Shown piece after piece: positions 8,385 through 63,303 of a stretch of DNA of 64,000 bases; position 1 is the first letter of the stretch; the number at the start of each line of letters is the position of its first letter. The notes under the pieces were generated by a model that saw only the letters and a list, made by a program, of their open reading frames with translations, was not told the origin of the DNA and made no database searches. Both the position numbers and the translations under genes were made by a program. The stretch lies in assembly GCA_942492065.1 (NCBI GenBank), contig CALODV010000013.1:20989-84988 (forward strand). The letters are read 5' to 3'. The DNA comes from Candidatus Cloacimonadales bacterium (GTDB lineage: Bacteria > Cloacimonadota > Cloacimonadia > Cloacimonadales > JAIOQZ01).

Positions 8385-8387
8385 ATT

Positions 8388-43342: not shown

Positions 43343-43699
43343 TAATTCAGTTCCTTCCAATTCAATATTTTTATATCAATATTTTTGGGTCGATTTTAAA
43401 GTCAAGCTAAATATTAGTTTTTTTACACCTTTTTTCGGGGTATAAATCAATGGCTATTATAAAGTGTGTTATGGCTGTATTTTGGCTTGAGATAAGGGCT
43501 GAATGTTAGCCAAGGGTAACTTGGGGGAAAGGTATTTCAGAAGGAGGATTTAGCGATTAACAGTTAAGTTTTCACTACTAGGATTCAAAAAGGATTGACA
43601 GACTTATCTTTGATCTTAGCATTGTCCTATAATTCATTATAGGAGTGACCATTATGATTCGTGAGCTTACAGAAAAAATGAAAAAGGAAAGATATATCC

Positions 43700-43947
43700 C
43701 GCCACCGAGTTTGGCGAAAACAGTCACTAAATTGGCGAAAACGCACTTTTCAGCCCAAAATGACCGTTTGAAATGAACATCTGACCTTCACGAGTTTGGC
43801 GAAAATCAAAACCACCCGAAAAAACTTGCACGAGTTTGGCAGTAAATTCAACAAAAAATGCCAATCTTGTGCAAGTCGAACAGTCACAAGATTGGCAAAA
43901 ATTCAGAGTTATGAACCTATAAACGATCACTAATTTGGCGAAAAATC
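43700..43947 (+). repeat. Array of six direct, imperfect ~19-bp repeats (core TTCAC-N-AG/AA-TTTGGC(G/A)AAAA) at the prophage/host junction
   Basis: Copies at about 43703, 43725, 43787, 43828, 43883 and 43926, all in the same orientation. Spacing is irregular (22 to 62 bp). Confidence 0.7.
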
Positions 43948-44694
43948 CCAGTTACCTATCAGCAATTCCTTATAAATTAGATCACCGGTACGCACAATTC
44001 CCTTCTGTCTGGAGAGTGGAATCATAGGAAATTCAGCGAATAACTCCCGGGCTTCCGGGCAGTCATCAAGTGAAAGCAGCCATTTACCTTTGATCGTCCT
44101 CAGACAATCCCGAAACGCCTTATGATCAAACTCTCTGGCATTATCATATCTGGCACCGGTAACATAAGGCGGATCAAAGTAAAAGAAGGCTGAAGGGCTG
44201 TCATAGTACTTAATCAAGTCTTTATAGTCCTTACCCTCGATCTGTACATGGTCAAGCCTTTTAGACAGCGCTCGTATCGCATCCAGCTTGTTTCTCAGAC
44301 TCTTCTGAGCTCCTTCTCTTCTTGCACCAAACGAGTCCCCCTGAGCTCCAAAACTGAAGGTAATCACATAGAAAAAACGAGCAGCCTTTTGCAGCTCAGT
44401 AAGCCCTTCCCATTGCATCATCTTGCCGAACATGATCCTGCCGGCAGGTAGTTTCTCAAGTTCGATTATAAGGGCTTCAGGATGATACTTCACCTGAAGA
44501 AACAGGTTAGTCAACCGCTCATCCAGATCATTATAAACCTCGGTTTTAGCCCATCTGTCTTTATACAGTAAAAGCCAGCCGGCACCACCGAACGGCTCTA
44601 TGTACTTTCCAATGTTATCAGGCACAAATTGTGCAATAGTTTTACGTAGTAGACGCTTGCTTCCCATCCATGGAATAATTGAATTTGTAGGCAT
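43930..44694 (-). CDS. dam: Orphan DNA adenine methyltransferase (Dam, D12 class)
   Basis: Motifs PWMGSKR, EPFGGAGW and catalytic DPPY. ATG at 44694 overlaps the upstream ORF stop (TAATG). The track start at 44730 is a GTG. Confidence 0.85.
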   Translation of the reverse strand: MPTNSIIPWMGSKRLLRKTIAQFVPDNIGKYIEPFGGAGWLLLYKDRWAKTEVYNDLDERLTNLFLQVKYHPEALIIELEKLPAGRIMFGKMMQWEGLTELQKAARFFYVITFSFGAQGDSFGARREGAQKSLRNKLDAIRALSKRLDHVQIEGKDYKDLIKYYDSPSAFFYFDPPYVTGARYDNAREFDHKAFRDCLRTIKGKWLLSLDDCPEARELFAEFPMIPLSRQKGIVRTGDLIYKELLIGNWDFSPN

Positions 44695-44894
44695 TAAATT
44701 GTTGCTCCTGAAGTAGAAAAAGCGTCGCACCCTCGACCAAGAACACTCCTATTCAAGTGCTTGGGCATAAACCCAAAGATGCGACGCAATATATCAGTTT
44801 TAATTGATTTATCGGTCGCTTGAATAGGTCTCAGCTCTTGGTCGAAGCTAATAACAAGGTTTGATTTTGAAATTAAATTGTCAACTGTAATCAT
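44694..44894 (-). CDS. Small hypothetical phage protein between the endolysin and dam
   Basis: 66-aa ORF translationally coupled at both ends. Confidence 0.4.
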   Translation of the reverse strand: MITVDNLISKSNLVISFDQELRPIQATDKSIKTDILRRIFGFMPKHLNRSVLGRGCDAFSTSGATI

Positions 44895-44900
44895 ACTAAA

Positions 44901-45488
44901 TTACACTCTCTTCAACCAGCCACGCACATATTTCCTCTGACTCGGTTTCATACTCGCTATAACTATATAATGATATCCCTGCATAATACGCATCATCTCA
45001 TTCAAATATGCAATATCACCGCATTTAATGCAGGTCTGCACTCGTTTATAAGTCTGCCTGCCGGCAATCCCATCCTTAATAAGATCTTCACCATACTCCC
45101 GACTGCCGTCCTTCATTTTCCTGTTTAAAAGATTAAGGCAGATCTGCAAGAATTCAGCAGCAGTCTCCTGACCGCAATTCACATTAATATCAAACATCCG
45201 ATGTGCCAATTCTTCATCCGTTATATTGTCATAACCCGGTTTCTCCCAGTACTTGAGCCTGAACAGAGCTTTTGCAGCCTGTCGTAAAGCCGGATCGTTG
45301 TTCAATACTTCAACATATTTATTTGGAAAAGTCTCCTTAATTTCATCAACGTATTTCCACCATTCCCAGTCTCCGTTAAACATTCTGGCAATACCAAAAA
45401 CAGTCTCACCGCCTGCATCATCCGGATCACATGAATAACCGGCTTCAATCAAAGCTAATTTAGGGTACATCTTATCAAAATAGTCCAT
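44901..45488 (-). CDS. Endolysin, glycoside hydrolase family 108 lysozyme-like with a peptidoglycan-binding C-terminus
   Basis: N-terminal MDYFDKMYPKLALIEAGYS…DDAGGETVFGI matches the GH108 N-terminus. ATG at 45488 after AAGGAG. Confidence 0.75.
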   Translation of the reverse strand: MDYFDKMYPKLALIEAGYSCDPDDAGGETVFGIARMFNGDWEWWKYVDEIKETFPNKYVEVLNNDPALRQAAKALFRLKYWEKPGYDNITDEELAHRMFDINVNCGQETAAEFLQICLNLLNRKMKDGSREYGEDLIKDGIAGRQTYKRVQTCIKCGDIAYLNEMMRIMQGYHYIVIASMKPSQRKYVRGWLKRV

Positions 45489-45502
45489 TCTAACTCCTTT
45501 GC

Positions 45503-46150
45503 TTATATAAATGTAAAGCCAGATCCACCCACAACCATCCATGCATGGTCGCTGTTGGATACAAGCATTACGCAATCTCCAAGACTATCAAATTCTATCG
45601 TTCCTTCGTTTCCTTCGCCTCCCGGATATATAACACATTTATCTGCACTATTAGCTGTTAGCGTTGCTTTATTACCAGTCTTCAGTTTGGTGTATGTTGC
45701 AATAACGAATTTACCTGCTTTTCCTGCAATTGCCGGTAATACTACAGCAACATCCTTATCATTGGTATCAGTATCAAATTCAAGGACTTGCAGATCAGAA
45801 TCAGTTAGAACAACCGTTGATATCGAATTGATAACCGTCTTGGCTGTCATACCGTCGCATTGCATAAATCTCCCGGGATTAAGCCCAAGCCAGCCGGTAT
45901 GTAGAAATCCACCTGTAGGATTATCTTTACTGACCACTATGCCATTATTACCCTGACTCAGCGAATAACCATCTAATGTATCGGCATCGATACCGGCAGC
46001 AGTTAATTCAGCTATTACCTTATTTACAATCGTCTCTATCAGAACCGTTCTGACTCTATCATCTGAAGAGCTGTCTGCTCCTTTATCTACAATCAGTACA
46101 TCCTTATCATCAGGATTACTATCTAATGGATATGTATTAGGTCGTGGCAT
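45503..46150 (-). CDS. Phage tail fibre or receptor-binding-like protein
   Basis: 215 aa, Gly/Thr/Asn-rich and beta-rich. Lies last in the tail module before lysis. GGAGG Shine-Dalgarno. Confidence 0.4.
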   Translation of the reverse strand: MPRPNTYPLDSNPDDKDVLIVDKGADSSSDDRVRTVLIETIVNKVIAELTAAGIDADTLDGYSLSQGNNGIVVSKDNPTGGFLHTGWLGLNPGRFMQCDGMTAKTVINSISTVVLTDSDLQVLEFDTDTNDKDVAVVLPAIAGKAGKFVIATYTKLKTGNKATLTANSADKCVIYPGGEGNEGTIEFDSLGDCVMLVSNSDHAWMVVGGSGFTFI

Positions 46151-46703
46151 GTGTTTCTCCTCCTGAATTAACGGTTACTGAAGGGTTAGGATTCTCATAT
46201 CCAAGCACATCAGCACCATTCTCATCTATTATATGGTTACCGGTTTCATCTATAACAAAACTGAAGTTATCCGGTAGTGTTAAAATTGTATTTAGCTCAT
46301 AGTAGCCAACTGATTCCAAAGTCATTTTATAAGCATCAATTTGCAGTGAATCTTTATAATGATAAGGCGTAAATTCAGTAACAAAGCACCATACTTTCTG
46401 ATATGAATCTGTCTCAGGTATCACATAAACACAGCTTCCAACAGGGCAATTGTTTTGAAGATCTGTCAGTTGCGTATTGAATACCAGTGAACTGCTGGGG
46501 TCATCCACCACAACCAGTTCAAATTTTGCATAATGCCCTTTTGTAATAAGTGTTCTCCTGCCTGTTAATACCGACTTATGCATTATCTGATCAGGCACCT
46601 GTAAATTGCTTTTAAACTGGCAAATCGCTTCCAGATTATTGAAATCAATGTTGATATCACTATTGTATATTCTTGGTAATTTAGAACCTAATATAACGCC
46701 CAT
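46137..46703 (-). CDS. Phage tail protein (hypothetical)
   Basis: Position between the Dit-like and fibre-like genes. TAATG coupling. Confidence 0.4.
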   Translation of the reverse strand: MGVILGSKLPRIYNSDINIDFNNLEAICQFKSNLQVPDQIMHKSVLTGRRTLITKGHYAKFELVVVDDPSSSLVFNTQLTDLQNNCPVGSCVYVIPETDSYQKVWCFVTEFTPYHYKDSLQIDAYKMTLESVGYYELNTILTLPDNFSFVIDETGNHIIDENGADVLGYENPNPSVTVNSGGETHATT

Positions 46704-47794
46704 TATACCGCCCTCTCATATGTCATAGTACAGTTCCTAACATCAAATTTGAGCGAGTAACAGAAACAGGTATAATCGTATTCAGATAGAAGAGTTGTAA
46801 CCTCTTTTGTATCGGCTAAACCTTGAAAATATGCCAGAAATACCTGTGCAATCTGCTCCTGCAAATCATTTATCCTGTGGATCCTGTAACTGGTCGGTGC
46901 ACTCAAGTAATACAGCTCCAGATTATCAATTATAGAAAGACTCCTGTTTGCCGTATCTGTTGGAGAATCAGTGCGGTAATCAGCTTCAGAAACATCTTCA
47001 TCAATCCATGTAAGATCAAACAGTTTACTCAGCTCAACATTACTTTGAGATACGCTGAAACTGCTGATAGTAGTCTGTTTCTTATCACCAATCTTAAATA
47101 TCAGATCTGCATCAGTAAAATATCGATAATGCACCGGTAGCAGGTAGTATTTGTTGTCATGAAATACAAGCTGAACCTGTAACAATTGCAGCAAACCAAC
47201 CACCACATCATATAGATTGCTAAATGTTCTGTCCTCATTATCTGTACATCCGTAAAATTCAATCTGCTTCAACTGCAAACCAATATTGCGATATCTCATT
47301 ATTGAATTATTGTAATTGTAAGGACTTGCCAGATCTCCAACCGAATCAATTACATCCACATTCAAACACTGCTTCATAACTGATTTAATAAAGTGAATAA
47401 CCGACACATAGCTCTCATCCCAGTATTCATAAGTATATCCAAAAGCCTTATAATCAGCCATTGTATTGTTTATGTCTGTAAACCAGAATCGGCGTACATC
47501 CTGTACACTGTAATCAGATAACTTTGACAGATAGTTAACCGCTTTTATATTATATAAATACTTGTCATAATCATACTCAACACTCTCAATTATCAGACGA
47601 AAAATAGAAGTCCCGTTTAGCTTGATAATCAGGATATCTCCCGGAACAGGTACAACTCCACAGATACTGATACTTGTAGTAGTATTAACCATTGAATAAT
47701 CATAGTTAACTCGTCTCGATAACCCATTAATTTTTATCACAGTATCGGAGATGTCAGCATTGTTCAGATACACCCTAATCATACTGATCTCCAC
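46703..47794 (-). CDS. Phage distal tail or baseplate-like protein (hypothetical)
   Basis: 363 aa immediately downstream of the tape measure gene. Confidence 0.4.
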   Translation of the reverse strand: MEISMIRVYLNNADISDTVIKINGLSRRVNYDYSMVNTTTSISICGVVPVPGDILIIKLNGTSIFRLIIESVEYDYDKYLYNIKAVNYLSKLSDYSVQDVRRFWFTDINNTMADYKAFGYTYEYWDESYVSVIHFIKSVMKQCLNVDVIDSVGDLASPYNYNNSIMRYRNIGLQLKQIEFYGCTDNEDRTFSNLYDVVVGLLQLLQVQLVFHDNKYYLLPVHYRYFTDADLIFKIGDKKQTTISSFSVSQSNVELSKLFDLTWIDEDVSEADYRTDSPTDTANRSLSIIDNLELYYLSAPTSYRIHRINDLQEQIAQVFLAYFQGLADTKEVTTLLSEYDYTCFCYSLKFDVRNCTMTYERAV

Positions 47795-50744
47795 CTCTAT
47801 CCATGCGATTCATGACTTGCCTGTCTTTACGGATTCGCACTTCCGGATCCGAAGTCTCAACCACGATAACCGGCTGCTGCTGACTAACCAGATTCATGTT
47901 AATTACTTCTAATTGCTGCTTTATCTCTGCTAATTCATTACTTCCGGTATTAACCACTCCACCGTTCGCATAAGCCAGTTTCGGTATTGGAATAGAAACA
48001 GCCTGTCTAATATCAAATCCGGTGAATGCCTCTCTTACCTTAGAAAGAGGTGCAAAATTGATAAAGTCCAGTAGTGGTTGAAAAGTCCTTGTCTTTTCTT
48101 CATTCACAATGTATTCACCGTTTGAAATTTTAATAACATTAGCATCATCTCTGCCCCCGCCAACACCACGGAAAAGTCCTCCGTCAGCGAACTCCTGAGC
48201 CTCTATCTGTGCCACATTAGCCAGTCCGGCAGCAATTGCCGCCGCAGCTGCTGCAACACCCAGTCCGGGACCCACTACAGGGATTCCTGCCATAGCTTTA
48301 TAAGCCGCAGTTGCAGCCGCATATGTATCAACTATCGCTTGAGCCTCAGCCGATCTCTTCCAGAATGTAAAACCCTCTTTCCCGAATTGCTTCATGTTTT
48401 CACCCATCTCCATCAAGGTGTTCCATGCAAGCTTGACTTCGGCTATCTTCTTAGCTTTATCAATCTTCGCCAGCTCTTTGTTTTGCTGTTTAATAATCTC
48501 TTTTTCGCTCAACCCATAAGCAAGAAGCATGTCCTTTTTCTCAGTGTAAAATTCGTTTATCTTTACTCTTTCCCTCTCATACATGTCTTCAATGCTTGCA
48601 ATCTTCCTGTCATTGAACTCCTCAAACGCTGCTAACTGCTCAGCCTGATTCTGCTTTTCCTCAGCCTTCCTTTCAGCCTTAATCCTTTTCTCTTCTGCTT
48701 CTTTAACTTTCTGTTGAGAATCCTTTTCATCCTGAATTGCTTTCTCAATTTCATATACTTCTTTAATTGCCTTAATATGCTCTTCCGAATTCTCTTTTGT
48801 CAGTTCTCCAAGGCTCTCATAATGCTTTTTAGCCTTCTCAAGTTCGTTTTCTAATAATTGTAATTTCGAGAGAGTTTTTGTTTTATCAAGCTCTTTCACA
48901 AGCTCGTTAAATTCTTTCTGAGCCTGTATATCTTCTTCTTTAGCTTTTTGCTTTAATAACTCTTCTTTGATATAGTATTCGTTAAGCTTATCAAGATCTT
49001 CCTGAGATAAAAATGTCAGAACCTTGGTCGATCTGTCAGCATTGTATTTTGCAAGAATCTCATCAATAAGCCTTGATACTTCCTTCATCTCTTCTCGAGC
49101 ACTCGAAGCACTGATTTTATCGGTGTACTTTGCATACTCTCTTGTCAGCTCATTCAACTTCTCTTGGTTCACAACCAGATCTTCAATACCCTTATTTGTC
49201 TCATATATGAACTCGATAAACTCACCTTGATTCTCAATCATTCTTTCTGTTTTTTCATTGTATTCTAATAATTCATGAATCACAGTTGTAATCCCAATAC
49301 CCAAAGCAGTTAGCCCAATAATCACCTGTGCAACCGGGTTTGCCAGCATAGCCGCATTAGCCGATATTACAGCCCATTTTAGCTGTATAATCTTTGCAGT
49401 AACCACACCAACAGTAACACCAAGTCCAATGAGTACATCATTGTTCTCAGCTAGAAACTGGATGAATTTAGTCGTATTTTCTGTGATAGTTTTCAATATT
49501 GGCAGAAAATTATCCATTAAGGTGATGTTCAATGCTTCCTGAGCAGATTGAAACTCAAGGATCTTCCCCTGAAGAGTATCCATTTGAGTTTTAGCCATCC
49601 TTTCCGCAGCTCCACCGGCATCATCAAGACTTGTCTTCAGGTCATTAAGGCTATAGGAAGCGTTTACCAGTGTTAAAAAGGAAGCAGCAGATCGCTTATC
49701 AAGATACTCTGTAGCATCTGCCAGATCAAAGTTACTGTCTTTCAGCTCTTGCAGTTTATCTACTACTTGTTCAAATGTCTTAACATTCTCACCCATCAAC
49801 TCAGAAACTCCGGAACTCTCATCTTGTAATTCCATCATGATGTTCTTCAAACCCATTCCGGCAATAGAACCATTAAGACCGGCATCAGCAAGCTTGCCAA
49901 GCATAGCTGTAGTTTCTTCTAATGAGAATCCGGCAGCACTCGCAATCGGAGCTAATGTCTTCATTGATTCCTTGAACTTAAACAAGTCCAGTGCAGATTT
50001 GGAAAAACTCAGAGCCATTACATCCGATACTCTATTCATCTCACTTGCTTCTAAGCGAAACCCTCTCAACGTTGCACCGGCAACCGCAGTTGATCCCTGA
50101 AGATCTTCATTAACAGCAGCTGAAAGCTTCACAATTCCATCAGTAGCATTCAGGATCTCTGTCGTACTGAAGCCAAGCTTAACTAACTCAACCTGTAGAT
50201 TAGCCACTTCAGTAGCAGTGAATTTAGTAGATGCTCCAAGGCTTTTAGAAACATCAGAGAGCTTCTCCATTTCTTGCTCGGTAGCACCGGATAAAGCTAA
50301 GATGTTCTTATTTGCCTGCTCGTAATCCATTGCTGGATTAGCAACCTTTTCAGCCTTATTCTGCACCTGATCAATCAATGTCATAAGACCCTGATAAGCC
50401 ATAGCCAGATGAGCAATGTTCTCCAACGCTGCACCAACATCTACATTGATGCTGCTTTCTTTATTATCCGGGACTTCTTCAATAGCTTTGCCGGCTCCTT
50501 CAGCAGTCTGCTCAGCTTCAGATCCATCTACATTAATACTGGCTTCGGCATCAGGAATACTGTCCATCTTACTGGTAACATCATCAACAGCTTTTTTAGC
50601 AGAGCTTGCATCAAGATTAACAGACATCTCAGCGGGAGTTTCAGCCGCTTTTATCACATCCTGAACACCTTTCTTTACCTCATTGACTTTCTTGTCAGCA
50701 TTACCGCCAAAGATCAGTTTAATGTAATATTCAAGCGTTGCCAT
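47775..50744 (-). CDS. Tail tape measure protein
   Basis: 989 aa. Extensive coiled-coil and low-complexity A/E/K segments. Gly-rich hydrophobic stretches (GLGVTVGVV, GPGLGVAAAAAAIAAGL). AGGAG Shine-Dalgarno. Confidence 0.8.
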   Translation of the reverse strand: MATLEYYIKLIFGGNADKKVNEVKKGVQDVIKAAETPAEMSVNLDASSAKKAVDDVTSKMDSIPDAEASINVDGSEAEQTAEGAGKAIEEVPDNKESSINVDVGAALENIAHLAMAYQGLMTLIDQVQNKAEKVANPAMDYEQANKNILALSGATEQEMEKLSDVSKSLGASTKFTATEVANLQVELVKLGFSTTEILNATDGIVKLSAAVNEDLQGSTAVAGATLRGFRLEASEMNRVSDVMALSFSKSALDLFKFKESMKTLAPIASAAGFSLEETTAMLGKLADAGLNGSIAGMGLKNIMMELQDESSGVSELMGENVKTFEQVVDKLQELKDSNFDLADATEYLDKRSAASFLTLVNASYSLNDLKTSLDDAGGAAERMAKTQMDTLQGKILEFQSAQEALNITLMDNFLPILKTITENTTKFIQFLAENNDVLIGLGVTVGVVTAKIIQLKWAVISANAAMLANPVAQVIIGLTALGIGITTVIHELLEYNEKTERMIENQGEFIEFIYETNKGIEDLVVNQEKLNELTREYAKYTDKISASSAREEMKEVSRLIDEILAKYNADRSTKVLTFLSQEDLDKLNEYYIKEELLKQKAKEEDIQAQKEFNELVKELDKTKTLSKLQLLENELEKAKKHYESLGELTKENSEEHIKAIKEVYEIEKAIQDEKDSQQKVKEAEEKRIKAERKAEEKQNQAEQLAAFEEFNDRKIASIEDMYERERVKINEFYTEKKDMLLAYGLSEKEIIKQQNKELAKIDKAKKIAEVKLAWNTLMEMGENMKQFGKEGFTFWKRSAEAQAIVDTYAAATAAYKAMAGIPVVGPGLGVAAAAAAIAAGLANVAQIEAQEFADGGLFRGVGGGRDDANVIKISNGEYIVNEEKTRTFQPLLDFINFAPLSKVREAFTGFDIRQAVSIPIPKLAYANGGVVNTGSNELAEIKQQLEVINMNLVSQQQPVIVVETSDPEVRIRKDRQVMNRMDRGGDQYD

Positions 50745-50858
50745 TGTGTTTTTCTCCTAAAGCCAAGTACATTCTTAACAGGTTCTTAATGCTCATTTTA
50801 GAACGTAAACTCGTGTAATCTGTTGAAGTGTGAACAGCCATAAATGCAACTAAATCCT

Positions 50859-51203
50859 CTAATGTATCCCTTGTTGAGTCTTCATGCCGGTTGCAGCCGT
50901 CTGAAATACCGAAGTTAGATCGGATATAATCTTGAAGACATCGTTGATAGTAAAAAAATCAGATACAATCTCCTGAAGTTGTTTGAAGCTTAATCCGGAT
51001 TCACTGCTCAATTCATCTTTGCCTTTTACTATTGTGTTTAGTACTGGATAAAGCTTGCCAGAATCCTTGATTGCCTTAATCACTTTTATAGGATTTTTAC
51101 CTTTGAAATCTACTTCAGAAATCAAATCCATTAAATCAATTGCATCCTCAGCCGTAATTTCTTTCTGTGTGTATACATTGCCGTCTATATTGTATGTTTT
51201 CAT
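50859..51203 (-). CDS. Possible tail assembly chaperone
   Basis: Small acidic ORF immediately upstream of the tape measure gene. Confidence 0.35.
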   Translation of the reverse strand: MKTYNIDGNVYTQKEITAEDAIDLMDLISEVDFKGKNPIKVIKAIKDSGKLYPVLNTIVKGKDELSSESGLSFKQLQEIVSDFFTINDVFKIISDLTSVFQTAATGMKTQQGIH

Positions 51204-51274
51204 TCGTGCTCCTTTAAATATTGTGTAGGAAAGAAACCGCCCGAATTAACGAGCGGTAACAGGAGGGTATTATG

Positions 51275-51520
51275 TCAGATCGTTGAATTTGCCTTCCCCG
51301 GTACACCATTTGCACCGGGAACACCGGTTAACTCTGAAAGTTGTTCGTGATCCTCTTTGAATGCTGACAGTAGTATCATTTTAACAATAGCTACCGCCTT
51401 ATCATCCAACTTATTACTTGTTTTCTTGACCATCTCATCAAGAAAATCGCAGAATACATTTATTATGTATTCTAGAGACATAATACTGAGGATATAGTGT
51501 AAAATTCCTGTCCAATTCAT
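51275..51520 (-). CDS. Hypothetical phage protein
   Basis: 81-aa ORF in the tail module. Confidence 0.3.
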   Translation of the reverse strand: MNWTGILHYILSIMSLEYIINVFCDFLDEMVKKTSNKLDDKAVAIVKMILLSAFKEDHEQLSELTGVPGANGVPGKANSTI

Positions 51521-51834
51521 TTCTTTAACTCCTTGATATTGATTGTTATGAAATCTAATTTCATGTTTATCTGTTTGAACTTTTCATCCACCAGCTCTCT
51601 CGTGATGAATGTAGAAAATAGGTTTTCATGATTTACCTGACATGAGCTCTTGTGTTTCTTGATATCGTTTCTCATTTCATTGATAAGTTTTGTATTCTCA
51701 GCAATTTGCGACTGCATTTTGCCAAACACATTAGCATAGGCAATGACTGCGATTATTATTGGTACAAGAGCTGTAATAATTGACGTTAAAACTGATATTT
51801 GCACAACCGACATTATACTGGCTCCCTTTGCCAT
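51517..51834 (-). CDS. Small single-pass membrane protein followed by a coiled-coil; holin-like candidate
   Basis: Transmembrane helix VLTSIITALVPIIIAVIAYANVF, then a charged coiled-coil. Confidence 0.35.
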   Translation of the reverse strand: MAKGASIMSVVQISVLTSIITALVPIIIAVIAYANVFGKMQSQIAENTKLINEMRNDIKKHKSSCQVNHENLFSTFITRELVDEKFKQINMKLDFITINIKELKK

Positions 51835-52022
51835 TCAGGCTTAATTAGCTCATTTAGTATGTCATTAACTTCATACTCCTCAAGTCCTTCAGGAATAGCC
51901 GAAAACTTGAGAACTACATCGTTATTACTTGATTTTCGAATTGTATCAATCGAGGTTTCTGCTGACTTCTCAAGCAGCTCATCTGTTAATATTGTTAATG
52001 GAATTATCACATATTTATACAT
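51813..52022 (-). CDS. Hypothetical phage protein
   Basis: 69-aa acidic ORF overlapping its neighbours. Confidence 0.3.
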   Translation of the reverse strand: MYKYVIIPLTILTDELLEKSAETSIDTIRKSSNNDVVLKFSAIPEGLEEYEVNDILNELIKPEWQREPV

Positions 52023-52788
52023 TCAAATGCTCCGGTGAGTTATAGAGTTGTACCTTATTACCGTTTACACCATAACAGTATTCACCACTGATTTTATTCA
52101 TATCGAAGTAATCAATTAAACCGTGAACATTATGTGGATTAACCGGTTTCTTGTAATTTCCGGTACCATAAAGTAACTGAGCCAGCTCCACCGGATCTGC
52201 ACTGTTTTCGATATTGTAAAAAGCTAGAGAACTCAAACCAGAAGCTGTATGCTGATAAGGTGTTCCTTCATAATAAATCGACACTGCTAATCCGTTTTGG
52301 TATGCATAGGCAACCGGAGCACTGTAGTTATTGGCAGTAATTGTTGCAGCTAAGACACCATCAATATACAGATACAATGTAATGTCTGTTCCCTCAATCT
52401 TCTCATAAGCAAAAACATGAGTCCATTTAAAACGGTAATCTCCCTGTGCAATACAGCTGATGAAGTTATTTGACTTGGATGAACCATCTTCATCGTAGCA
52501 CGTTCCCAGCATGAACCTTCCGGATTCATCTGGAACTGCTGATAATGTCAAAGGTGAAACGTTCCTTGCATAAATAAGTAAGTTCCGACCTCCAATCATA
52601 GTATCCGGATACTGAGTTATTCCATTGTCTCCCAGTAGAACCCATGCAGAAAAAGCATTGTAATCCCACAGAGGTTCACCTATAGAATTAGTGACAGATC
52701 CATAACTGTCCACACCGTCAAACCGCAGGAATTTGGCTAATATCCTGCGTTTAGCTCTGTTCAGTGCTAACTTCAAACCGAGTAACAT
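52015..52788 (-). CDS. Phage structural protein with a lectin/LamG-like beta-sandwich character
   Basis: 257 aa with Gly/Tyr/Asn-rich beta-strand composition. Confidence 0.35.
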   Translation of the reverse strand: MLLGLKLALNRAKRRILAKFLRFDGVDSYGSVTNSIGEPLWDYNAFSAWVLLGDNGITQYPDTMIGGRNLLIYARNVSPLTLSAVPDESGRFMLGTCYDEDGSSKSNNFISCIAQGDYRFKWTHVFAYEKIEGTDITLYLYIDGVLAATITANNYSAPVAYAYQNGLAVSIYYEGTPYQHTASGLSSLAFYNIENSADPVELAQLLYGTGNYKKPVNPHNVHGLIDYFDMNKISGEYCYGVNGNKVQLYNSPEHLNV

Positions 52789-53069
52789 TACACAATGCTC
52801 CAGACGATGTTAAGAACCTGTCCATCAGCACCTTTCACATAGATATTCGCCATCTTGCTTATCCCGTGTTGAAAGTAATCTGCTGGGAATCCGTCACCTG
52901 TTGCCGACTCAGCAATTGTAAACTCGGATAGGGAACTCACGATAACCTCATGAGCTCCCTCTGGTTTGCTTATCTCATGAAAATCTGTACCTGAAAGAGT
53001 TTTGTTTTCAGTTTCAAATCTTGTCGAAGTTGGTATTACTTTGCGATTATCATCTATTGAAAAAGCCAT
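52788..53069 (-). CDS. Hypothetical phage protein
   Basis: 93-aa ORF with an ATG start. Confidence 0.3.
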   Translation of the reverse strand: MAFSIDDNRKVIPTSTRFETENKTLSGTDFHEISKPEGAHEVIVSSLSEFTIAESATGDGFPADYFQHGISKMANIYVKGADGQVLNIVWSIV

Positions 53070-53077
53070 CTTACTGC

Positions 53078-53557
53078 CTATGTGGTTGGGATTGCTGCCA
53101 GTGTTCTGAATTGAGTAACAGTTGGAGTTTCCTTCTCAACATTAATCTGTAGAGTTTGTGCTTCTCCACCCGGGTACTCTTCTTCAAAATTATAAAGAAT
53201 ATCCGGAATCAGATAGTAAAAATCACCAACTGTACTCTCAAGAAGAATATCCACATTAGTTCCGCTGATATTCTGTAAAGCAATGATATTTTCAACACTT
53301 AAATGTAACAATTGACAACTGAATGTGCCTGTTCCGCCAACAGCTTTTTTACCTTCAAGCGATCCCTCAACAAACTTACTTGGTTTGTAAGTTGGCTTAA
53401 CACCTTTTTGAGTCATCCCAACCTGTTGATAAGTAGCTCTTTCGGTTTCATAAGCCGTTTTTGTATTCATATCTCCGATTGCTGCCTGTTCACGCATGAA
53501 AACTTTGAAGTTTCTTGCTACAGCTCCGGAAGTACCGTATTCTAAAACAAATGCCAT
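53078..53557 (-). CDS. Candidate major tail (tube) protein
   Basis: 159 aa. Lies between head genes and tail chaperones. AGGAGG Shine-Dalgarno. Confidence 0.4.
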   Translation of the reverse strand: MAFVLEYGTSGAVARNFKVFMREQAAIGDMNTKTAYETERATYQQVGMTQKGVKPTYKPSKFVEGSLEGKKAVGGTGTFSCQLLHLSVENIIALQNISGTNVDILLESTVGDFYYLIPDILYNFEEEYPGGEAQTLQINVEKETPTVTQFRTLAAIPTT

Positions 53558-53565
53558 CTGTCCTC

Positions 53566-53970
53566 CTATACTTTCCAGACAAGGAATGCTGTGATTGTGT
53601 TAGCTGACAGATCTGTGTTACCTGTGACTTGCAGTCTGAGATATCCTCTGAAGTGATCTCTGGATATACCGAAACGAGTCATACGCTCATGCTTAGCAAT
53701 AGACATCGCTGCACCGGCTGCCTTGATAAATGGTTTAAACTTGGCTTTTGGTAAAGTCCAGTCAGTTCCATTTTCAGAAGCCTGTACTTCTATCTCGAGT
53801 GTGTTTGCATCTGCCAGAGATATTGCATTATCTGCGACAACTACTACCTCAAGACGATTGTTATTATTACCAATTTTAACAGCATCTGAAAGCTTTGGAG
53901 TCGTATTAGCCGGCAGAGTTGTCTTCTTGAAAAAATAGCTGTTTGGAGTTACGTTAAATCCATATGGCAT
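53566..53970 (-). CDS. Phage head-proximal structural protein (hypothetical)
   Basis: 134 aa directly after the capsid gene. AGGAGG Shine-Dalgarno. Confidence 0.4.
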   Translation of the reverse strand: MPYGFNVTPNSYFFKKTTLPANTTPKLSDAVKIGNNNNRLEVVVVADNAISLADANTLEIEVQASENGTDWTLPKAKFKPFIKAAGAAMSIAKHERMTRFGISRDHFRGYLRLQVTGNTDLSANTITAFLVWKV

Positions 53971-53979
53971 AAATACCTC

Positions 53980-54921
53980 CTAATGTGTTCTTTCTTCTGT
54001 TTTCTTGATATTGTTTTCAGTTTCTACAGGAATACCATCCCAGTCTCTGACTGTTCTGATTACTTTTCCGCCGTGATCTTTTACATCAATTGTTGCACCA
54101 TTGAGAGAGGATATCAGTCTTCTAGCTGTTCCGTTTGCATAAATAACTGTATTACCCGGTGTTGCATTGATTGCTTCGAGCATCTTATCAATTTGCTTTG
54201 CAGTTGGAATATAGCCCTCAGCTTCTTTAATTCCAGATAGAACGTAAATATTGCAGCGAGAAAGCACTTTCAAACCGAAGTCATTACCATACTTGTACTG
54301 GAATACAGTAAGCTTCTTCCCGTCCTTATCGACAATCACTGCTTTTCCACCATTGAGAATTGTTGGTTTAAACATCCCTTTTGCAAATTGCTGTTCGTTG
54401 TAAAGTCCTGTGCACTGTGCAGCATCCCAAGTTACAGCAACTAATGAGGTATAATCAGAACCGGTTCCTGTATTGTTAACAGGAATACACATTCCGAAAT
54501 TTTTTGCATAATCTATCAGACCCATGAAGCCATCTTCGTTGTTAGCCAAGCCATAAAGATATTGACGAGCCATACCTTGCCCATAACCTTCAATGATTGC
54601 AGGAGATTTGTCTCGGATATACTTCGGAAGTCCTCCATACTGCTTTATCAGCTTTTCAGGAGGTTCGAAGACATTACCGAATTCCATCAGATCAATTTCA
54701 TCTGAGGATGTATTTGTAGACCCGTTAGGTAAGCCTTCTCCCATAGAAGCAAAACCACCTTGAGCAAGTTCGTCAAACTGAGTGTAAAGGTCTTTAATCC
54801 CGTTAGAGCTTTTATTGAATTCCATCGTTCTTATCAATGCAGACTTCTTTGCCAGATGTGCAGCCACGACTGCATTCTTACCGTTGTAAGTACTGTTAGT
54901 TAGATTAATTATATCAGGCAT
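53980..54921 (-). CDS. Major capsid protein, Mu gpT-like
   Basis: 313 aa following the gpI-like gene with TAATG coupling. Size and position fit Mu T. Confidence 0.6.
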   Translation of the reverse strand: MPDIINLTNSTYNGKNAVVAAHLAKKSALIRTMEFNKSSNGIKDLYTQFDELAQGGFASMGEGLPNGSTNTSSDEIDLMEFGNVFEPPEKLIKQYGGLPKYIRDKSPAIIEGYGQGMARQYLYGLANNEDGFMGLIDYAKNFGMCIPVNNTGTGSDYTSLVAVTWDAAQCTGLYNEQQFAKGMFKPTILNGGKAVIVDKDGKKLTVFQYKYGNDFGLKVLSRCNIYVLSGIKEAEGYIPTAKQIDKMLEAINATPGNTVIYANGTARRLISSLNGATIDVKDHGGKVIRTVRDWDGIPVETENNIKKTEERTH

Positions 54922-55874
54922 TAGTCCTCCACATCAGGCAAGAATGGATCATAGTCTCCACCATGCTTACCTTCTTCGATAACATAATTCTTTCTCAAGT
55001 TTTCTACAGGATGACTGTTAACATAAGCTTCGAGTTGTTCATCAGTTAATGATAGTGCAAATTCCTTCTGAGCAGGATAGATTTTACTCTCAGTAATGTA
55101 CTGTTGCACTTTTGCTGCTACACTATTTGTGATGGTTTTCTGCTTCATGTTGTCTGCGAATTTTCTAAATGCATCAAGATCAACTGATGCAAGAGCAATT
55201 GATGTCTCTCGCTGATCTGCCTCAATCACACCGGAGTTAATATATTTATCAACTTCAGCCTGAATAACAGAATCTTTAAGAGCCTTAACCTCTTTTGACA
55301 AAGCATCGTTCTGGTTGGATAAGGTCTTGTTTTCCCCTTCCAGCTCTTTTATTAACGCTTTGAGTTGTTCTTCATTCATAGAGCTCTCCTCTTTATTTAT
55401 TTGTGAGTTGTTTACAATCGGATCTAATTCTGTGAGAAATGGCTGATTGGTTAATGCCACACTGTGTAGTCTTGTACCCACATTCTTGTAAGTACCTGGA
55501 ATTTTATAGTCAAATTGAAATACAGGAGAAACATAGCGATACTCCTTGTTATCAATTGCCAATTGACCTGATGCTGTCCACTTAACCGTTGCATAGAGCT
55601 TCCCTTCTTCAATTTCAAGAGACTGAATCCAGCCGGCTGCTTTTGTGTTTCCCCAGATACAATTGTGGTCATAATCAAATTGAACATCCCGCTCTTCATT
55701 ACTGAAGTTTGCAACCATCTGCTCCATATCCTGTAAGGTTATTTTGAATGCACCTTGATGATGATGCTCCCATTCACCTTGCACAGCAACACATATCCGT
55801 TTAGTATCTTCTACTCCATCCAAGCTTATTTCAACAGAACAGATTTTAATGTTATCAGGTATTTTTTTCGGCAT
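54921..55874 (-). CDS. Mu gpI-like prohead protease/scaffold
   Basis: Mu-I family pattern (…DYDH…GWIQSLE…YRYVSPVF…HSVALTNQPFL) followed by a coiled-coil scaffold-like C-terminus. ATG at 55874 after AAAGGAG. Confidence 0.7.
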   Translation of the reverse strand: MPKKIPDNIKICSVEISLDGVEDTKRICVAVQGEWEHHHQGAFKITLQDMEQMVANFSNEERDVQFDYDHNCIWGNTKAAGWIQSLEIEEGKLYATVKWTASGQLAIDNKEYRYVSPVFQFDYKIPGTYKNVGTRLHSVALTNQPFLTELDPIVNNSQINKEESSMNEEQLKALIKELEGENKTLSNQNDALSKEVKALKDSVIQAEVDKYINSGVIEADQRETSIALASVDLDAFRKFADNMKQKTITNSVAAKVQQYITESKIYPAQKEFALSLTDEQLEAYVNSHPVENLRKNYVIEEGKHGGDYDPFLPDVED

Positions 55875-55983
55875 ATCAGCTCCTTTAACTTTCGGAGGCA
55901 TTATACCATAGTAATCATATTCCAATTTAAAAAGTGGTGCTCACCACCACAAAAAAAAGCAAATAAGGTATTCGTGTGTACAA

Positions 55984-55997
55984 TTGAACCAGTTCAA
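55984..55997. promoter_or_regulatory. Perfect palindrome TTGAACcaGTTCAA in the divergent head/packaging control region. A GTGGTGctcACCACCAC hairpin lies nearby.
   Basis: Read directly in the sequence. Lies in the 140-bp gap between divergently transcribed modules. Confidence 0.3.
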
Positions 55998-56017
55998 AAA
56001 TACTACAGGAGTCATTG

Positions 56018-56401
56018 ATGTTCGAAGCAATAATGAACGCACTGATAAAAGAACTGGCAGACACAAAGCTGTTTAAACAAGTGGAGCCATACGAAGGTCA
56101 ATTCGAGGATCTCAAACAGTTTACAATCTTAATGCCGGCAGTATTCTCCGAGTTTGTTAACTTTCAGGAGGAACCCGGACTTGTAGTTAATGCAAGGCTG
56201 ATTATAGCAGCACCGACAATCAAAGGACGCAAAAACTTAAGCATGCTCTCACTTATGGACAAGCTCAGAGATCTGCTTAAAAACAGGAACTTAGAAGATG
56301 AATCGGGCTATCTGTGTCGCATCGAGTTTACCGGCTTTGACCGACTCGCTATTTTTCCCGGATTTAACACTTATCAACTCTACGCCAAACTAGTGAGGTA
56401 A
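56018..56401 (+). CDS. Phage head-completion or connector protein (hypothetical; Mu gp36/37-like position)
   Basis: 128-aa ORF with ATG after AGGAG. Confidence 0.35.
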   Translation: MFEAIMNALIKELADTKLFKQVEPYEGQFEDLKQFTILMPAVFSEFVNFQEEPGLVVNARLIIAAPTIKGRKNLSMLSLMDKLRDLLKNRNLEDESGYLCRIEFTGFDRLAIFPGFNTYQLYAKLVR

Positions 56402-56403
56402 TT

Positions 56404-56775
56404 ATGTACGTGAGTGTAGTATCAGTAAAAGAATCAATTGGAGCCAACAGCGAGCTCATTTGCAGCGAAATCACCGACGAACAAATCGAGCAGATAATCA
56501 CAGATCAGTCAGCCTATATCGACAGCTATATCAGCAGCGTTACATCAGTGCCGGTTACAGACAACGAAGTCATCAGACGTATCTGCAAATCATTATCAGT
56601 TTACGAGATACACAAGCAAGTCTCACTGGTAGACATCCCGGATCACATCAATAACGAATACAGACACGTCAACGGACTCCTCAACAAGATCCTCAAGAGA
56701 GAGATTGTTATCGGAACTGAGTCACTCGCAATTGACTTTGTTGCTGAAGAACAGTTCTTCAAAGGATTTTTCTAA
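56404..56775 (+). CDS. Phage hypothetical protein (head-tail joining position)
   Basis: 123-aa ORF with overlapping stop and start signals. Confidence 0.35.
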   Translation: MYVSVVSVKESIGANSELICSEITDEQIEQIITDQSAYIDSYISSVTSVPVTDNEVIRRICKSLSVYEIHKQVSLVDIPDHINNEYRHVNGLLNKILKREIVIGTESLAIDFVAEEQFFKGFF

Positions 56776-57269
56776 TGTCTAAGCAAATCCTTTTAGATCA
56801 TGTTGCTGCACGTGTAATAAACCAGATCAAAAAACGCATGGAAGCGAACCGGTTCGCTAATGGACGCAAGAAAGATGGTGGTCGTAAATCCCTGATTGAG
56901 TCGAGAAAGCTATTTAATTCTATTACCTATCAAATTGAAGGTAACTCTGTCAAAATCGGCTCTAATCAGAAATATGCTAAAATCCAGAACGAGGGTGGAG
57001 TTATCAAGCCGGTTAATGCCAAGTATCTCGCTATCCCAATCCATAAAGCTGCAAAAGCCAAAAGACCTGAAGAGTTCGAGAATACCTTTATTGCAAAAGG
57101 TGTGATATTCCTAAAAAGAAGCAATGGCAAAGATCCGCTTCCTCTTTACGTCCTGAAGAAGCAGGTTACTATTCCTAAAACCAGTTTTTTAAGCATCCAG
57201 CCGGAAGACAGAACACCGATCAAGCATGTCATAGAAACATACTACGAACAACAATTGAGGGCAGAATAA
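56775..57269 (+). CDS. Virion morphogenesis protein, Mu G / P2 S-like family
   Basis: Pattern …KIQNEGGVIKPVNAKYLAIP… typical of the phage virion morphogenesis family. Confidence 0.55.
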   Translation: MSKQILLDHVAARVINQIKKRMEANRFANGRKKDGGRKSLIESRKLFNSITYQIEGNSVKIGSNQKYAKIQNEGGVIKPVNAKYLAIPIHKAAKAKRPEEFENTFIAKGVIFLKRSNGKDPLPLYVLKKQVTIPKTSFLSIQPEDRTPIKHVIETYYEQQLRAE

Positions 57270-57721
57270 TGGCATATAAAAAAGCAACCAAAGCAATAGC
57301 ACGTAACCTGTTTATGGAAGGTAAACCGGTTGAGAAAATTGCCGAGATCATGAACATCCCCCCAAAGACTATTTACAACTGGAAAAATAAAGAGGGTTGG
57401 GATACGGAATTCACAAATGCAAGCTCTATCAGTATTGTAAATGAGTTGTTCATAGGAATCATGGAACAGCTTCAGGAGATGCTTGCGAGCAAAGAATTGT
57501 TCAATTCCAAGAAAGCTGATGCAGTAAACAAAATACTCAACGCTATGAAGCGGATTGCTCCGGAAAAAGCACTGCTATCCAACATGCTCACTATGTTTCA
57601 GGACATTCTGAGCTATGCCAACAACAACATTGAAGACAGGGACTTTGTGGATAAGCTGACTGATTATGCAGAGGAGTTTTCTAATCACCTCAAGGACAAA
57701 TATGGCATCTCAAGAAGCTAA
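57269..57721 (+). CDS. Terminase small subunit candidate (helix-turn-helix)
   Basis: N-terminal helix-turn-helix-like LFMEGKPVEKIAEIMNIPPKTIYNW. Sits directly upstream of the large terminase gene. Confidence 0.5.
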   Translation: MAYKKATKAIARNLFMEGKPVEKIAEIMNIPPKTIYNWKNKEGWDTEFTNASSISIVNELFIGIMEQLQEMLASKELFNSKKADAVNKILNAMKRIAPEKALLSNMLTMFQDILSYANNNIEDRDFVDKLTDYAEEFSNHLKDKYGISRS

Positions 57722-59228: not shown

Positions 59229-59238
59229 GGAGACATAA

Positions 59239-63295: not shown

Positions 63296-63303
63296 TGTTC
63301 CTC

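What the first reader, a model, noticed from the sequence alone, without database searches (positions are those of the whole stretch)
43700..43947. Six direct repeats resembling Mu-type transposase end-binding sites at the prophage boundary
A ~19-bp motif recurs six times in one orientation within 250 bp. The copies are ccaCCGAGTTTGGCGAAAA, gTCACTAAATTGGCGAAAA, TTCACGAGTTTGGCGAAAA, TGCACGAGTTTGGCAGTAAA, GTCACAAGATTGGCAAAAA and ATCACTAATTTGGCGAAAAA. The array lies exactly where phage genes (dam) meet host genes (rex/hyd). As I recall it, the phage Mu end-site consensus is 5'-TGNTTCAYTNNAARYRCGAAAR-3'. Both conserved blocks (TTCAC… and …RCGAAAA) match with the same 19-nt spacing, and the prophage head and packaging genes are Mu-type. 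Together these point to a transposable (Mu/D3112/B3-like) siphophage whose end is defined by multiple transposase-binding sites, not a tRNA-targeting integrase att site. The alternative reading is iterons of a phage origin or repressor operators. The irregular spacing and absence of cas genes exclude CRISPR.
Basis: partly seen in the sequence, partly recalled or inferred. Interest (0 to 1): 0.75.

Follow-up and report, generated by a model that had tools for sequence, protein, structure and literature searches.

The report
Mu-type prophage right-end transposase sites

Summary
The six direct 19-bp repeats are real (6 hits in the array against 0.9 expected window-wide; leave-one-out 14-27 bits each). 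The repeats lie between the last phage gene (dam, whose last codons overlap copy 6) and host rex. The prophage is Mu-type: portal_Mu, Mu F, Mu I protease and DUF3164 are in the window. A MuB-like ATPase and a 777-aa MuA-family DDE transposase lie about 2.6-5.6 kb past the window edge, on the same 1.39-Mb contig as the host genes. Each copy is TCAC-N8-CGAAAA, the same two blocks, spacing and outside-in polarity as genuine Mu sites. The transposase family profile reaches MuA's end-binding domains in the solved transpososome. A 42%-identical relative carries a related motif in inverted orientation at both ends of its MuA-MuB element. Related strains lack the prophage here. Assembly-graph break-points bracket the phage tip to 43621-43694, best guess 43694. 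Not shown: the left end, a target duplication, the exact tip (no 5'-TG at the expected place), and binding itself. Verdict: interpretation supported; new member of a known kind; modest interest.

The parts
43702..43720 (+). Copy 1 (CCACCGAGTTTGGCGAAAA), the outermost recognisable site; R1-like
   Evidence: Leave-one-out 15.6 bits. No + strand site of 2 bits or more lies further out in 43600-43700.
43723..43741 (+). Copy 2 (GTCACTAAATTGGCGAAAA), 21 bp from copy 1; R2-like
   Evidence: Leave-one-out 22.7 bits. Mu R1-R2 spacing is 22 bp.
43787..43805 (+). Copy 3 (TTCACGAGTTTGGCGAAAA), the consensus copy
   Evidence: Leave-one-out 27.3 bits. 14/19 identical to Mu R2 TTCACGATAAATGCGAAAA by hand comparison of the sequences.
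43827..43845 (+). Copy 4 (TGCACGAGTTTGGCAGTAA), with a degenerate distal block
   Evidence: Leave-one-out 14.3 bits. Forms an 18-bp palindrome with the inverted copy (I1).
43855..43876 (-). Inverted partial copy (ACTTGCACAAGATTGGCATTTT on the minus strand); R3-like and/or a terminator arm
   Evidence: (I1, I3). 8.5 bits. 17/20 identical to the end site TTGCAGCAGTTTGGCATTTT of the relative element in L006.
43883..43901 (+). Copy 5 (GTCACAAGATTGGCAAAAA)
   Evidence: Leave-one-out 20.6 bits.
43926..43944 (+). Copy 6 (ATCACTAATTTGGCGAAAA), the innermost copy; overlaps the dam stop codon and last five codons
   Evidence: Leave-one-out 24.0 bits.
43853..43897 (-). Terminator-like hairpin (13-bp stem, 43859-43871 paired with 43885-43897) followed by U6, downstream of dam
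   Evidence: RNA fold of the minus strand, present in both the MFE and centroid structures; arms, I3. The simple terminator scan did not list it because its loop is longer than 8 nt.
43621..43694 (.). Bracket for the phage/host junction (right tip of the prophage); best guess 43694
   Evidence: Host-side Logan contigs from two samples end at 43650 and the phage-side contig starts at 43664, all 100% identical to the window. Logan uses k=31 and does not report contigs under 150 bp (PMC12424806). This implies an unreported 73-nt node, 43621-43693, with branches at both sides.
43930..44694 (-). Phage dam (D12-class N6-adenine methyltransferase), last gene before the end
   Evidence: Pfam PF02086 6.6e-21 and phrog_56 3e-65. 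The 254-aa product from ATG 44694 is on record in a Logan contig.
43694..64000 (-). Part of the Mu-type prophage inside the window: lysis, tail, capsid, Mu I protease, terminase, portal_Mu-MuF, Phg_2220_C and DUF3164 genes
   Evidence: MuB-like and MuA-like genes follow at about 66.6-69.6 kb in window-equivalent coordinates (L001).
56379..56396 (-). Single internal near-consensus site (TCACTAGTTTGGCGTAGA); significance unknown
   Evidence: 19.3 bits against 0.007 hits of that strength expected per window.

Best explanation
The array is the right-end attachment region (attR-like) of a Mu-type transposable, probably siphoviral, prophage integrated upstream of rex in a Cloacimonadota genome. Each 19-bp copy is a bipartite site (TCAC, 8 bp, CGAAAA). 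I infer that the sites are bound by the phage's 777-aa MuA-family DDE transposase through domains homologous to MuA I-beta and I-gamma. Several transposase subunits bound at this end and at the unseen left end would pair the ends into a transpososome, which cuts at the tips and joins them to a target chosen with the MuB-like ATPase. The copy 5 / inverted-copy pair probably also acts as the intrinsic terminator of the dam operon. Shown: the repeats, their position, the Mu-type gene set, the transposase and ATPase, and the shared site grammar and polarity. Inferred: binding, end pairing and activity.
For: Repeats: 6 direct copies plus 1 inverted copy, confined to 250 bp. Position: between dam and host rex. 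Two related strains (94-97% identity across rex-hyd) lack the prophage here. Assembly graphs of two metagenomes branch at 43621-43694, that is 8-81 bp outside copy 1. Phage type: Portal_Mu 2e-55, Phage_Mu_F 4e-15, Mu-like_Pro 4e-38, DUF3164 1e-52. Contig L001 is about 99.7% identical to window 62248-64000 and continues into a weak GemA-like ORF, a MuB-like AAA_22/TniB ATPase and a transposase with Mu-transpos_C 4e-15 plus a sub-threshold rve hit. The full-length transposase P0001 is on the same 1,385,748-bp contig as the window's host proteins. Protein-to-DNA logic: a profile of 36 homologs hits the MuA transpososome 4FCY at 4.9e-21, with the match starting at chain residue 42, which I place inside I-beta from my knowledge of the 4FCY construct, and isolated I-gamma 2EZH at 0.0026. 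Site grammar: real Mu L1, L3, R2 and inverted R3 are TTCAY-N8-CGAAAR, with the TTCAY block nearer the tip, R1-R2 22 bp apart and R3 inverted. Here the copies are TCAC-N8-CGAAAA with the same polarity, copies 1-2 are 21 bp apart, and one copy is inverted. If the tip is 43694, copies 1 and 2 lie at nt 9-27 and 30-48, against Mu R1 9-27 and R2 31-49. Family test: in L006 (transposase 42% identical) the related motif TTGCAGCAGTTTGKCATTTT lies at 3072(+) and at 13412-13543(-, four copies plus an inverted partial), 3 hits against 0.02 expected. These sites bracket repressor-ner-MuA-MuB with the same outside-in polarity.
Against: The left end of this prophage could not be read, so neither the inverted copies nor a 5-bp duplication were seen. 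There is no 5'-TG within a few bp of the predicted tip (43692-94 reads ATA); the candidate TG dinucleotides (43623, 43655, 43662, 43679) have no recognisable site beside them. Seven sites over 245 bp is more than Mu's three per end. The head and packaging genes are split into two divergent blocks at 55.9-56.0 kb, so the prophage may be rearranged. One strong near-site lies inside the phage (56379). A second relative (L025) shows no comparable array. A single-sequence search of the transposase against PDB hits TnsB, not MuA. Binding has not been tested.
Confidence: 0.8

Rival explanations
1. The sites are a relic: this is the former attR of a Mu-type prophage that is now rearranged or tip-eroded and can no longer transpose. 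The array would be historical rather than functional, apart from the terminator hairpin.
For: There is no 5'-TG at the expected tip and no site at the alternative tips. The head and packaging module is split into divergent blocks. The same insertion junction is present in the genome and in a metagenome sample, which fits a fixed prophage.
Against: All checked phage ORFs are intact, including the full 777-aa transposase. Six copies keep 14-27 bits. Phage variants differ between samples (L001 against the window), and the graph branches at the junction, which suggests more than one context. KS10 is an active transposable phage without TG..CA tips (PMC2628397).
Confidence: 0.12
2. The repeats are binding sites for another phage DNA-binding protein: iterons for the Phg_2220_C replication-initiator-like protein, operators of a repressor, or a pac site for the small terminase. 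On this reading they are not transposase sites.
For: The prophage encodes a Phg_2220_C / phrog_428 'replication initiation' protein (62191-62868) and a DNA-binding small terminase (57269-57721). Irregularly spaced direct repeats are also typical of iterons.
Against: The array is 18 kb from the initiator-like gene and 13 kb from terS, at the extreme edge of the element. In Mu-type phages pac and the operators are at the left end (established Mu biology). The site grammar and polarity match MuA sites. A relative with no structural or replication genes carries the related motif inverted at both ends of a MuA-MuB element.
Confidence: 0.05
3. The prophage integrated by site-specific recombination. 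The 73-nt segment 43621-43693, which behaves as a two-context node in the assembly graphs, would be an att core repeated at both prophage ends, and the repeat array would be arm-type sites for an integrase or excisionase.
For: A sequence present in two contexts would by itself explain both graph break-points (43650 and 43664) without population heterogeneity.
Against: None of the ORFs checked in the 20 kb of prophage in the window or in the 4.8 kb beyond it matched an integrase, whereas MuA and MuB are present. There is no tRNA. No second copy of the 73-mer occurs in any sequence held. The same graph pattern is also produced by a terminal inverted repeat, or by a lysogen/non-lysogen mixture plus one SNP.
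Confidence: 0.03

Closest known systems
Phage Mu attR (MuA-binding sites R1, R2, R3) and attL (L1-L3)
   Same: Several ~19-22-bp sites lie in the terminal region next to the last gene, which is a DNA-modification gene in both (mom in Mu, dam here). The sites share the bipartite grammar TTCAY-N8-CGAAAR against TCAC-N8-CGAAAA, with the TCAC block nearer the tip. The two outermost sites are 21-22 bp apart, and one site is inverted. The element encodes a MuA-family transposase, a MuB-like ATPase, Mu-type portal, F and I proteins, plus a weak GemA-like match (E=0.0067, below the Pfam cut-off).
   Different: There are seven sites over 245 bp rather than three over about 75 bp. The centre of the site is TTTGG rather than AARYR. 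There is no 5'-TG at the Mu-equivalent tip position. The transposase is too diverged for a single-sequence match to MuA, and it has an HTH_17 N-terminus and a low-complexity SQMD-repeat linker. The tail is probably siphovirus-type (tape-measure gene, no sheath or baseplate hits), and the host is Cloacimonadota.
Other transposable phages with predicted end sites (BcepMu, KS10, D3112/B3, FluMu; Bacteroides hankyphage)
   Same: These have A-rich imperfect direct repeats at each end, inverted between the ends, plus MuA/MuB-type genes. KS10 shows that TG..CA tips and a visible target duplication are not universal (PMC2628397). Hankyphage shows transposable siphophages in the FCB group (PMC12135933).
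   Different: The site sequence is different and there are more copies. No member from Cloacimonadota was found in the searchable literature.
Tn7-like / CAST TnsB end-binding sites
   Same: The transposase family profile hits TnsB about as well as MuA (5e-24 against 5e-21). Tn7-type ends also carry 3-4 direct TnsB sites per end with irregular spacing, together with an AAA+ partner of the TniB/TnsC type.
   Different: No TnsA, TniQ or CRISPR components are present. The element carries a complete phage structural module. The site grammar matches Mu, not Tn7.
MuA-MuB cargo element in Cloacimonadota MAGs (L006-L009, transposase P0003)
   Same: Its transposase is 42% identical with the same architecture, and a MuB-like gene is adjacent. 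The end motif is related (17/20 to the window's inverted copy), with the same polarity, a 22-bp tandem pair and an adjacent inverted partial copy.
   Different: It is only about 10.5 kb and has no virion genes. It carries QueC, nucleoside deoxyribosyltransferase and AAA_13 cargo, and only one recognisable site at its left end.

Membership tests
Mu-type transposable phage end (att) region | The element encodes a MuA-family DDE transposase (rve/DDE core plus Mu-transpos_C) | tested here: met
   L001 2-1513: Mu-transpos_C 4.3e-15 and rve 2.1e-6, the latter below its Pfam cut-off. Full-length P0001 (777 aa) is on the same contig as the window's host proteins. The family profile hits MuA 4FCY at 4.9e-21. 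The gene lies outside the window.
Mu-type transposable phage end (att) region | A MuB-like AAA+ target-selection ATPase lies next to the transposase | tested here: met
   L001 1518-2225: AAA_22 1.9e-15, AAA 2.2e-12, TniB 2.9e-7, immediately downstream of the transposase.
Mu-type transposable phage end (att) region | Several ~19-22-bp transposase-binding repeats within the terminal few hundred bp | tested here: met
   Six direct copies plus one inverted copy in 43702-43944, starting 8-81 bp from the bracketed junction.
Mu-type transposable phage end (att) region | The same sites occur in inverted orientation at the other end | not testable with these tools
   The left end lies beyond 64 kb. The source contig was not retrievable and L001 stops inside the transposase gene. 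The feature is met in a 42%-identical relative (L006).
Mu-type transposable phage end (att) region | 5'-TG...CA-3' terminal dinucleotides | tested here: inconclusive
   There is no TG at 43692-43694. TG occurs at 43623, 43655, 43662 and 43679 inside the junction bracket, but without an adjacent site. KS10 lacks TG..CA.
Mu-type transposable phage end (att) region | A 5-bp target-site duplication flanks the element | not testable with these tools
   This needs the left junction. No clean empty site is available, because related strains diverge at 43526 into different islands.
Mu-type transposable phage end (att) region | Insertion is not at a tRNA or conserved att site, and is absent from related strains | tested here: met
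   No tRNA in the window. L014 and L015 carry rex-hyd without the prophage.
Mu-type transposable phage end (att) region | The transposase physically binds the repeats | not testable with these tools
   This needs footprinting or EMSA. Only homology of the I-beta/I-gamma region and the shared site grammar support it.
Phage Mu consensus site itself (TTCAY-N8-CGAAAR) | The two conserved blocks have the same spacing and the same polarity relative to the tip | tested here: met
   Real Mu L1, L3, R2 and R3 were extracted from AF083977. Window copies 2, 3, 5 and 6 carry TCAC-N8-(C/A)GAAAA. Overall similarity is only moderate: the window PWM scores Mu R2 at 9.9 bits and L1 at 4.2 bits.
Integrase-type prophage att site | A tyrosine or serine integrase gene and an identical core at both ends | tested here: inconclusive
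   No ORF submitted to Pfam or PHROGs, in the window's prophage part or in L001, matched an integrase. The other end was not seen. The 73-nt graph node could in principle be a repeat.
CRISPR array | Regularly spaced identical repeats with unique spacers, and cas genes | tested here: not met
   Spacing is irregular (21-64 bp), the repeats are imperfect and one is inverted. No ORF submitted to Pfam or PHROGs matched a cas family.

The most novel reading that the evidence does not exclude
The bipartite MuA recognition grammar (TCAC-N8-CGAAAA, with the same polarity and the same R1/R2 geometry) has been conserved from E. coli Mu to a Cloacimonadota phage even though the transposases are no longer alignable by single-sequence search. 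In this phylum the same transposase/site family also drives non-viral MuA-MuB cargo transposons (the L006 type, which carries defence-like or DNA-modification genes). That would make the site a portable end signal shared by phages and transposons.
Probability: 0.25. Interest if true: 0.5.

Novelty: new member of a known kind. Interest (0 to 1): 0.3.

Why it matters
The finding correctly classifies a prophage in a phylum with few or no cultured members as a transposable (Mu-type) phage and marks one of its ends. This matters for delimiting the prophage, for interpreting strain variation next to rex-hyd, and for recognising that such phages mutate and rearrange their hosts by random insertion. 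It adds a clear example that Mu-like end architecture (multiple bipartite sites, one of them inverted, next to a DNA-modification gene) extends to Cloacimonadota. It also gives a concrete DNA motif and a partner protein for anyone who wants to build a mini-Mu-style tool for these organisms. It does not reveal a new mechanism.

Tried and rejected
1. Retrieving the left end. The transposase (P0001 or its C-terminal fragment from L001) was searched in viral, GTDB-genome and JGI-metagenome contigs with no relatives found. P0001 and the 40-aa junction ORF are not on record for contig look-up.

2. A clean empty site. Related strains L014 and L015 share sequence only up to 43526 and then carry different islands.

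3. Looking for an intact or alternative gene beginning with MIRELTEKMKKER, to fix the junction. Only the window's own 40-aa ORF exists in the database.

4. Paired-site pattern scans. One ambiguous Mu-type contig was found (L010; the array is at a contig end but its polarity points off the contig). The rest were unrelated tandem or coding repeats (L011-L013, L018-L024). The single-site IMG/VR scan gave 40 isolated hits and no clusters.

5. A degenerate terminal site at 43658-43676 (TTCGT-N8-AGAAAA), which I first favoured. It is rejected because nothing in 43600-43700 scores 2 bits or more.

6. An L006-type site at 61792. It is not above chance when indels are allowed (6 hits against about 2 expected).

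7. Inverted repeats at the borders of the oddly oriented terminase-portal block. None were found.

8. A second relative, L025 (P0015). It has no array upstream of its transposase.

9. Rex operator. The palindrome made by the inverted copy has 13-nt spacing, unlike the Rex box as I recall it, so this was rejected by inspection.

Full report
**Observation**

They are at 43702-20, 43723-41, 43787-805, 43827-45, 43883-901 and 43926-44. The degenerate pattern CACNARNTTGGCRAAAA with up to 2 mismatches hits 7 times in the 64-kb window against 0.91 expected (no shuffle reaches 7), and six of the hits are in the array. In a leave-one-out PWM test each copy scores 14.3-27.3 bits.

- An inverted partial copy lies at 43855-43876 and forms palindromes with copies 4 and 5.
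- Copy 6 overlaps the last codons and the stop of dam.
- On the minus strand, copy 5 and the inverted copy fold into a 13-bp hairpin followed by U6, about 33 nt after the dam stop. This is a plausible terminator.

**Surroundings**

To the left are host genes: rex (42698-43342, minus strand) and a HydABC-type hydrogenase operon.

To the right is a prophage:
- minus strand: dam, GH108 endolysin, tape-measure protein, GP7-type capsid, Mu I protease;
- plus strand: adaptor, neck, small and large terminase, and a Portal_Mu-MuF-PBECR2 fusion;
- then Phg_2220_C and DUF3164.

There is no tRNA in the window, and none of the ORFs submitted to Pfam or PHROGs matched an integrase.

**Is it a transposable phage?**

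The window ends inside the prophage. A Logan metagenome contig (L001) carries the identical DUF3164 protein and is about 99.7% identical to window 62248-64000. It continues through a weak GemA-like ORF, a MuB-like AAA_22/TniB ATPase and a transposase with Mu-transpos_C and rve domains. The full-length 777-aa transposase (P0001, 100% identical to that fragment) is recorded on one NCBI contig of 1,385,748 bp. The window's own host proteins are recorded on the same contig, so the transposase belongs to this prophage. In window-equivalent coordinates MuB is at about 66.6-67.3 kb and the transposase at about 67.3-69.6 kb.

**Protein-DNA logic**

A single-sequence search of P0001 against PDB finds only TnsB. 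A profile of 36 homologs does better:
- the MuA transpososome structure 4FCY at E=4.9e-21, with the match starting at chain residue 42, which I place inside I-beta from my knowledge of the 4FCY construct;
- the isolated I-gamma domain 2EZH at E=0.0026;
- marginally, I-alpha 1TNS at E=0.0046.

The bipartite end-binding module of MuA is therefore conserved in this family, which fits a two-block DNA site.

**Test of the remembered Mu consensus**

I extracted the real Mu ends from AF083977.
- L1 is TTCACTTGAAGTACGAAAA (nt 9-27).
- L3 is TTCATTGAAAATACGAAAA.
- R1 is CGCACGAAAAACGCGAAAG (nt 9-27).
- R2 is TTCACGATAAATGCGAAAA (nt 31-49).
- R3 is inverted.

The window copies read (T)TCAC-N8-CGAAAA. 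They have the same two blocks and the same spacing, and the same polarity, with TCAC toward the host side. Copy 3 is 14/19 identical to Mu R2 by hand comparison. Copies 1-2 are 21 bp apart, against 22 bp for R1-R2. Overall similarity is only moderate: the window PWM gives Mu R2 9.9 bits.

**Where is the tip?**

Two related strains (L014 from a 3.96-Mb contig, and L015) share rex-hyd at 94-97% identity and have no prophage here. Their similarity to the window stops at 43526, and each then carries a different island: DUF3800/DUF559 in one, HNH/DUF559/Band_7 in the other. The region upstream of rex is thus a strain-variable hotspot, and no clean empty site is available.

Logan contigs that are 100% identical to the window give finer information. 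Host-side contigs from two samples both end at 43650, and the phage-side contig begins at 43664. Logan contigs are k=31 de Bruijn products in which all 31-mers are distinct, and contigs under 150 bp are not reported (PMC12424806). The two contigs must therefore be joined through an unreported 73-nt node, 43621-43693, with extra branches on both sides. The tip lies within 43621-43694.

My best guess is 43694, for three reasons.
- The phage contig's first base is exactly 43694 minus 30, as expected if the host sequence forks into phage and non-phage continuations there.
- Copy 1 is the outermost recognisable site; nothing reaches 2 bits in 43600-43700.
- With that tip, copies 1 and 2 occupy nt 9-27 and 30-48, which almost reproduces Mu R1 and R2.

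There are two weaknesses. There is no 5'-TG at that position, although KS10 is a precedent for a transposable phage without TG..CA (PMC2628397). And the second branch point, near 43650, remains unexplained. A terminal repeat or an att-like repeat of the 73-mer would also fit the graph. No second copy was found in any sequence I could read.

The segment 43595-43693 looks like a gene start: TTGACA-16-TAGCAT, a 9-bp palindrome, AGGAG, and ATG at 43654. The 40-aa ORF that begins there is annotated on the source contig but has no relatives. It may be a host gene cut at codon 13.

**Family-level test of the two-ended prediction**

The nearest relatives of the transposase with the same architecture are about 42% identical and come from Cloacimonadota MAGs. 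In L006 the gene order is CI-like repressor, ner-like gene, MuA, MuB and a 108-aa gene. These are followed at 13412-13543 by four copies of GTTGCA(GCAG/AGAGG)TTTG(T/G)CATTTT on the minus strand, two of them in 22-bp tandem, plus an adjacent inverted partial copy. One copy lies on the plus strand at 3072-3091. That is 3 hits against 0.02 expected. Read from outside inward, both ends present the same motif, and they bracket a roughly 10.5-kb MuA-MuB element. The window's inverted copy is 17/20 identical to this site, and the polarity is the same as in the window and in Mu.

**Host and literature**

Named homologs of the host NuoF-like protein (65-70% identity) are all Cloacimonadota. No paper in the searchable library links Cloacimonadota with Mu-like phages. 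Transposable phages with predicted end sites are well known, and one siphoviral example exists in the FCB group, the hankyphage.

**Rivals**

- A relic or defective end is possible (about 0.12), given the missing TG and the split head module.
- Iterons, operators or a pac site are unlikely (about 0.05), because of position, site grammar and the relative's two-ended arrangement.
- An integrase-type att site is unlikely (about 0.03), because MuA and MuB are present and no integrase was found.
- CRISPR is excluded by the irregular, imperfect and partly inverted repeats.

**Verdict**

The interpretation, the right-end transposase-binding array of a Mu-type transposable prophage, is supported at about 0.8 confidence. 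It is a new member of a known kind, of modest interest.

Noticed in passing
window 55925-56015 and 56015-61692: The head and packaging genes form two divergent blocks. Protease, capsid, tail, lysis and dam run on the minus strand from 55925. A 128-aa ORF, adaptor, neck, terS, terL and portal-MuF run on the plus strand from 56015. This is unusual for Mu-type phages, where these genes are collinear. No inverted repeats mark the block borders.
   Followed up: partly
window 56379-56396 (-): A single strong near-consensus end site (TCACTAGTTTGGCGTAGA, 19.3 bits, 0.007 expected per window) lies inside the prophage near the divergent junction, within the 3' end of ORF 56015-56401. Its meaning is unknown.
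   Followed up: partly
L006 about 3072-13543 (also L007-L009): A roughly 10.5-kb MuA-MuB element without virion genes occurs in Cloacimonadota MAGs. It is flanked by inverted end sites and carries QueC, a nucleoside 2-deoxyribosyltransferase, an AAA_13 ATPase and a CI-like repressor. It is a possible Mu-derived cargo transposon with DNA-modification or defence-like genes.
   Followed up: partly
window 43527-43693; L014 7301-8743; L015 6512-8536: The region upstream of rex is a strain-variable hotspot. Three strains share sequence exactly up to window 43526 and then carry different content: DUF3800 and DUF559 genes; HNH, DUF559 and Band_7 genes; or 167 bp of unique DNA followed by the prophage.
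   Followed up: partly
window 43595-43776: There is a promoter-like TTGACA-16-TAGCAT, the palindrome TCCTATAAT-TC-ATTATAGGA (43625-43644), an AGGAG and an ATG at 43654. Together they start a 40-aa ORF that runs into copies 1-2. The ORF is annotated on the source contig (P0137) but has no homolog among 5.8 billion clusters. It is possibly the stump of a host gene cut by the phage.
   Followed up: partly
window 59239-61692 (+): Portal_Mu, Phage_Mu_F and a C-terminal PBECR2 (barnase/EndoU/colicin-like nuclease) domain are fused in one 817-aa ORF. From my own knowledge, this recalls the known MuF-linked toxin domains.
   Followed up: no
P0001 residues about 50-170 (gene outside the window, about 69.1-69.5 kb equivalent): The transposase has a long low-complexity insert with SQMD/GQMDTS-type repeats between its HTH_17 N-terminus and the I-beta/I-gamma-like region. 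Contig L001 starts at about residue 275 of the gene, downstream of this repeat region; the cause of that break was not examined.
   Followed up: no
L010 5440-5583 (IMGVR_UViG_3300037786_000031): Five tandem CCACC-N3-TTGGCGAAAA-like sites (21-22-bp period) lie at the end of a viral contig next to Mu-type baseplate genes (GpP, Gp45, Gp46, J). Their polarity points off the contig, so it is unclear which element they belong to.
   Followed up: partly
L011 2801-2884 and L021 11435-11518: A conserved 33-bp tandem repeat (TTTGGCGAAAAGCGGACCCAC...) lies upstream of an AAA_14/DUF4143 ATPase gene in L011, a Bacilli MAG, and recurs in a low-GC (25%) metagenome contig, L021. It is probably unrelated to the finding.
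   Followed up: no
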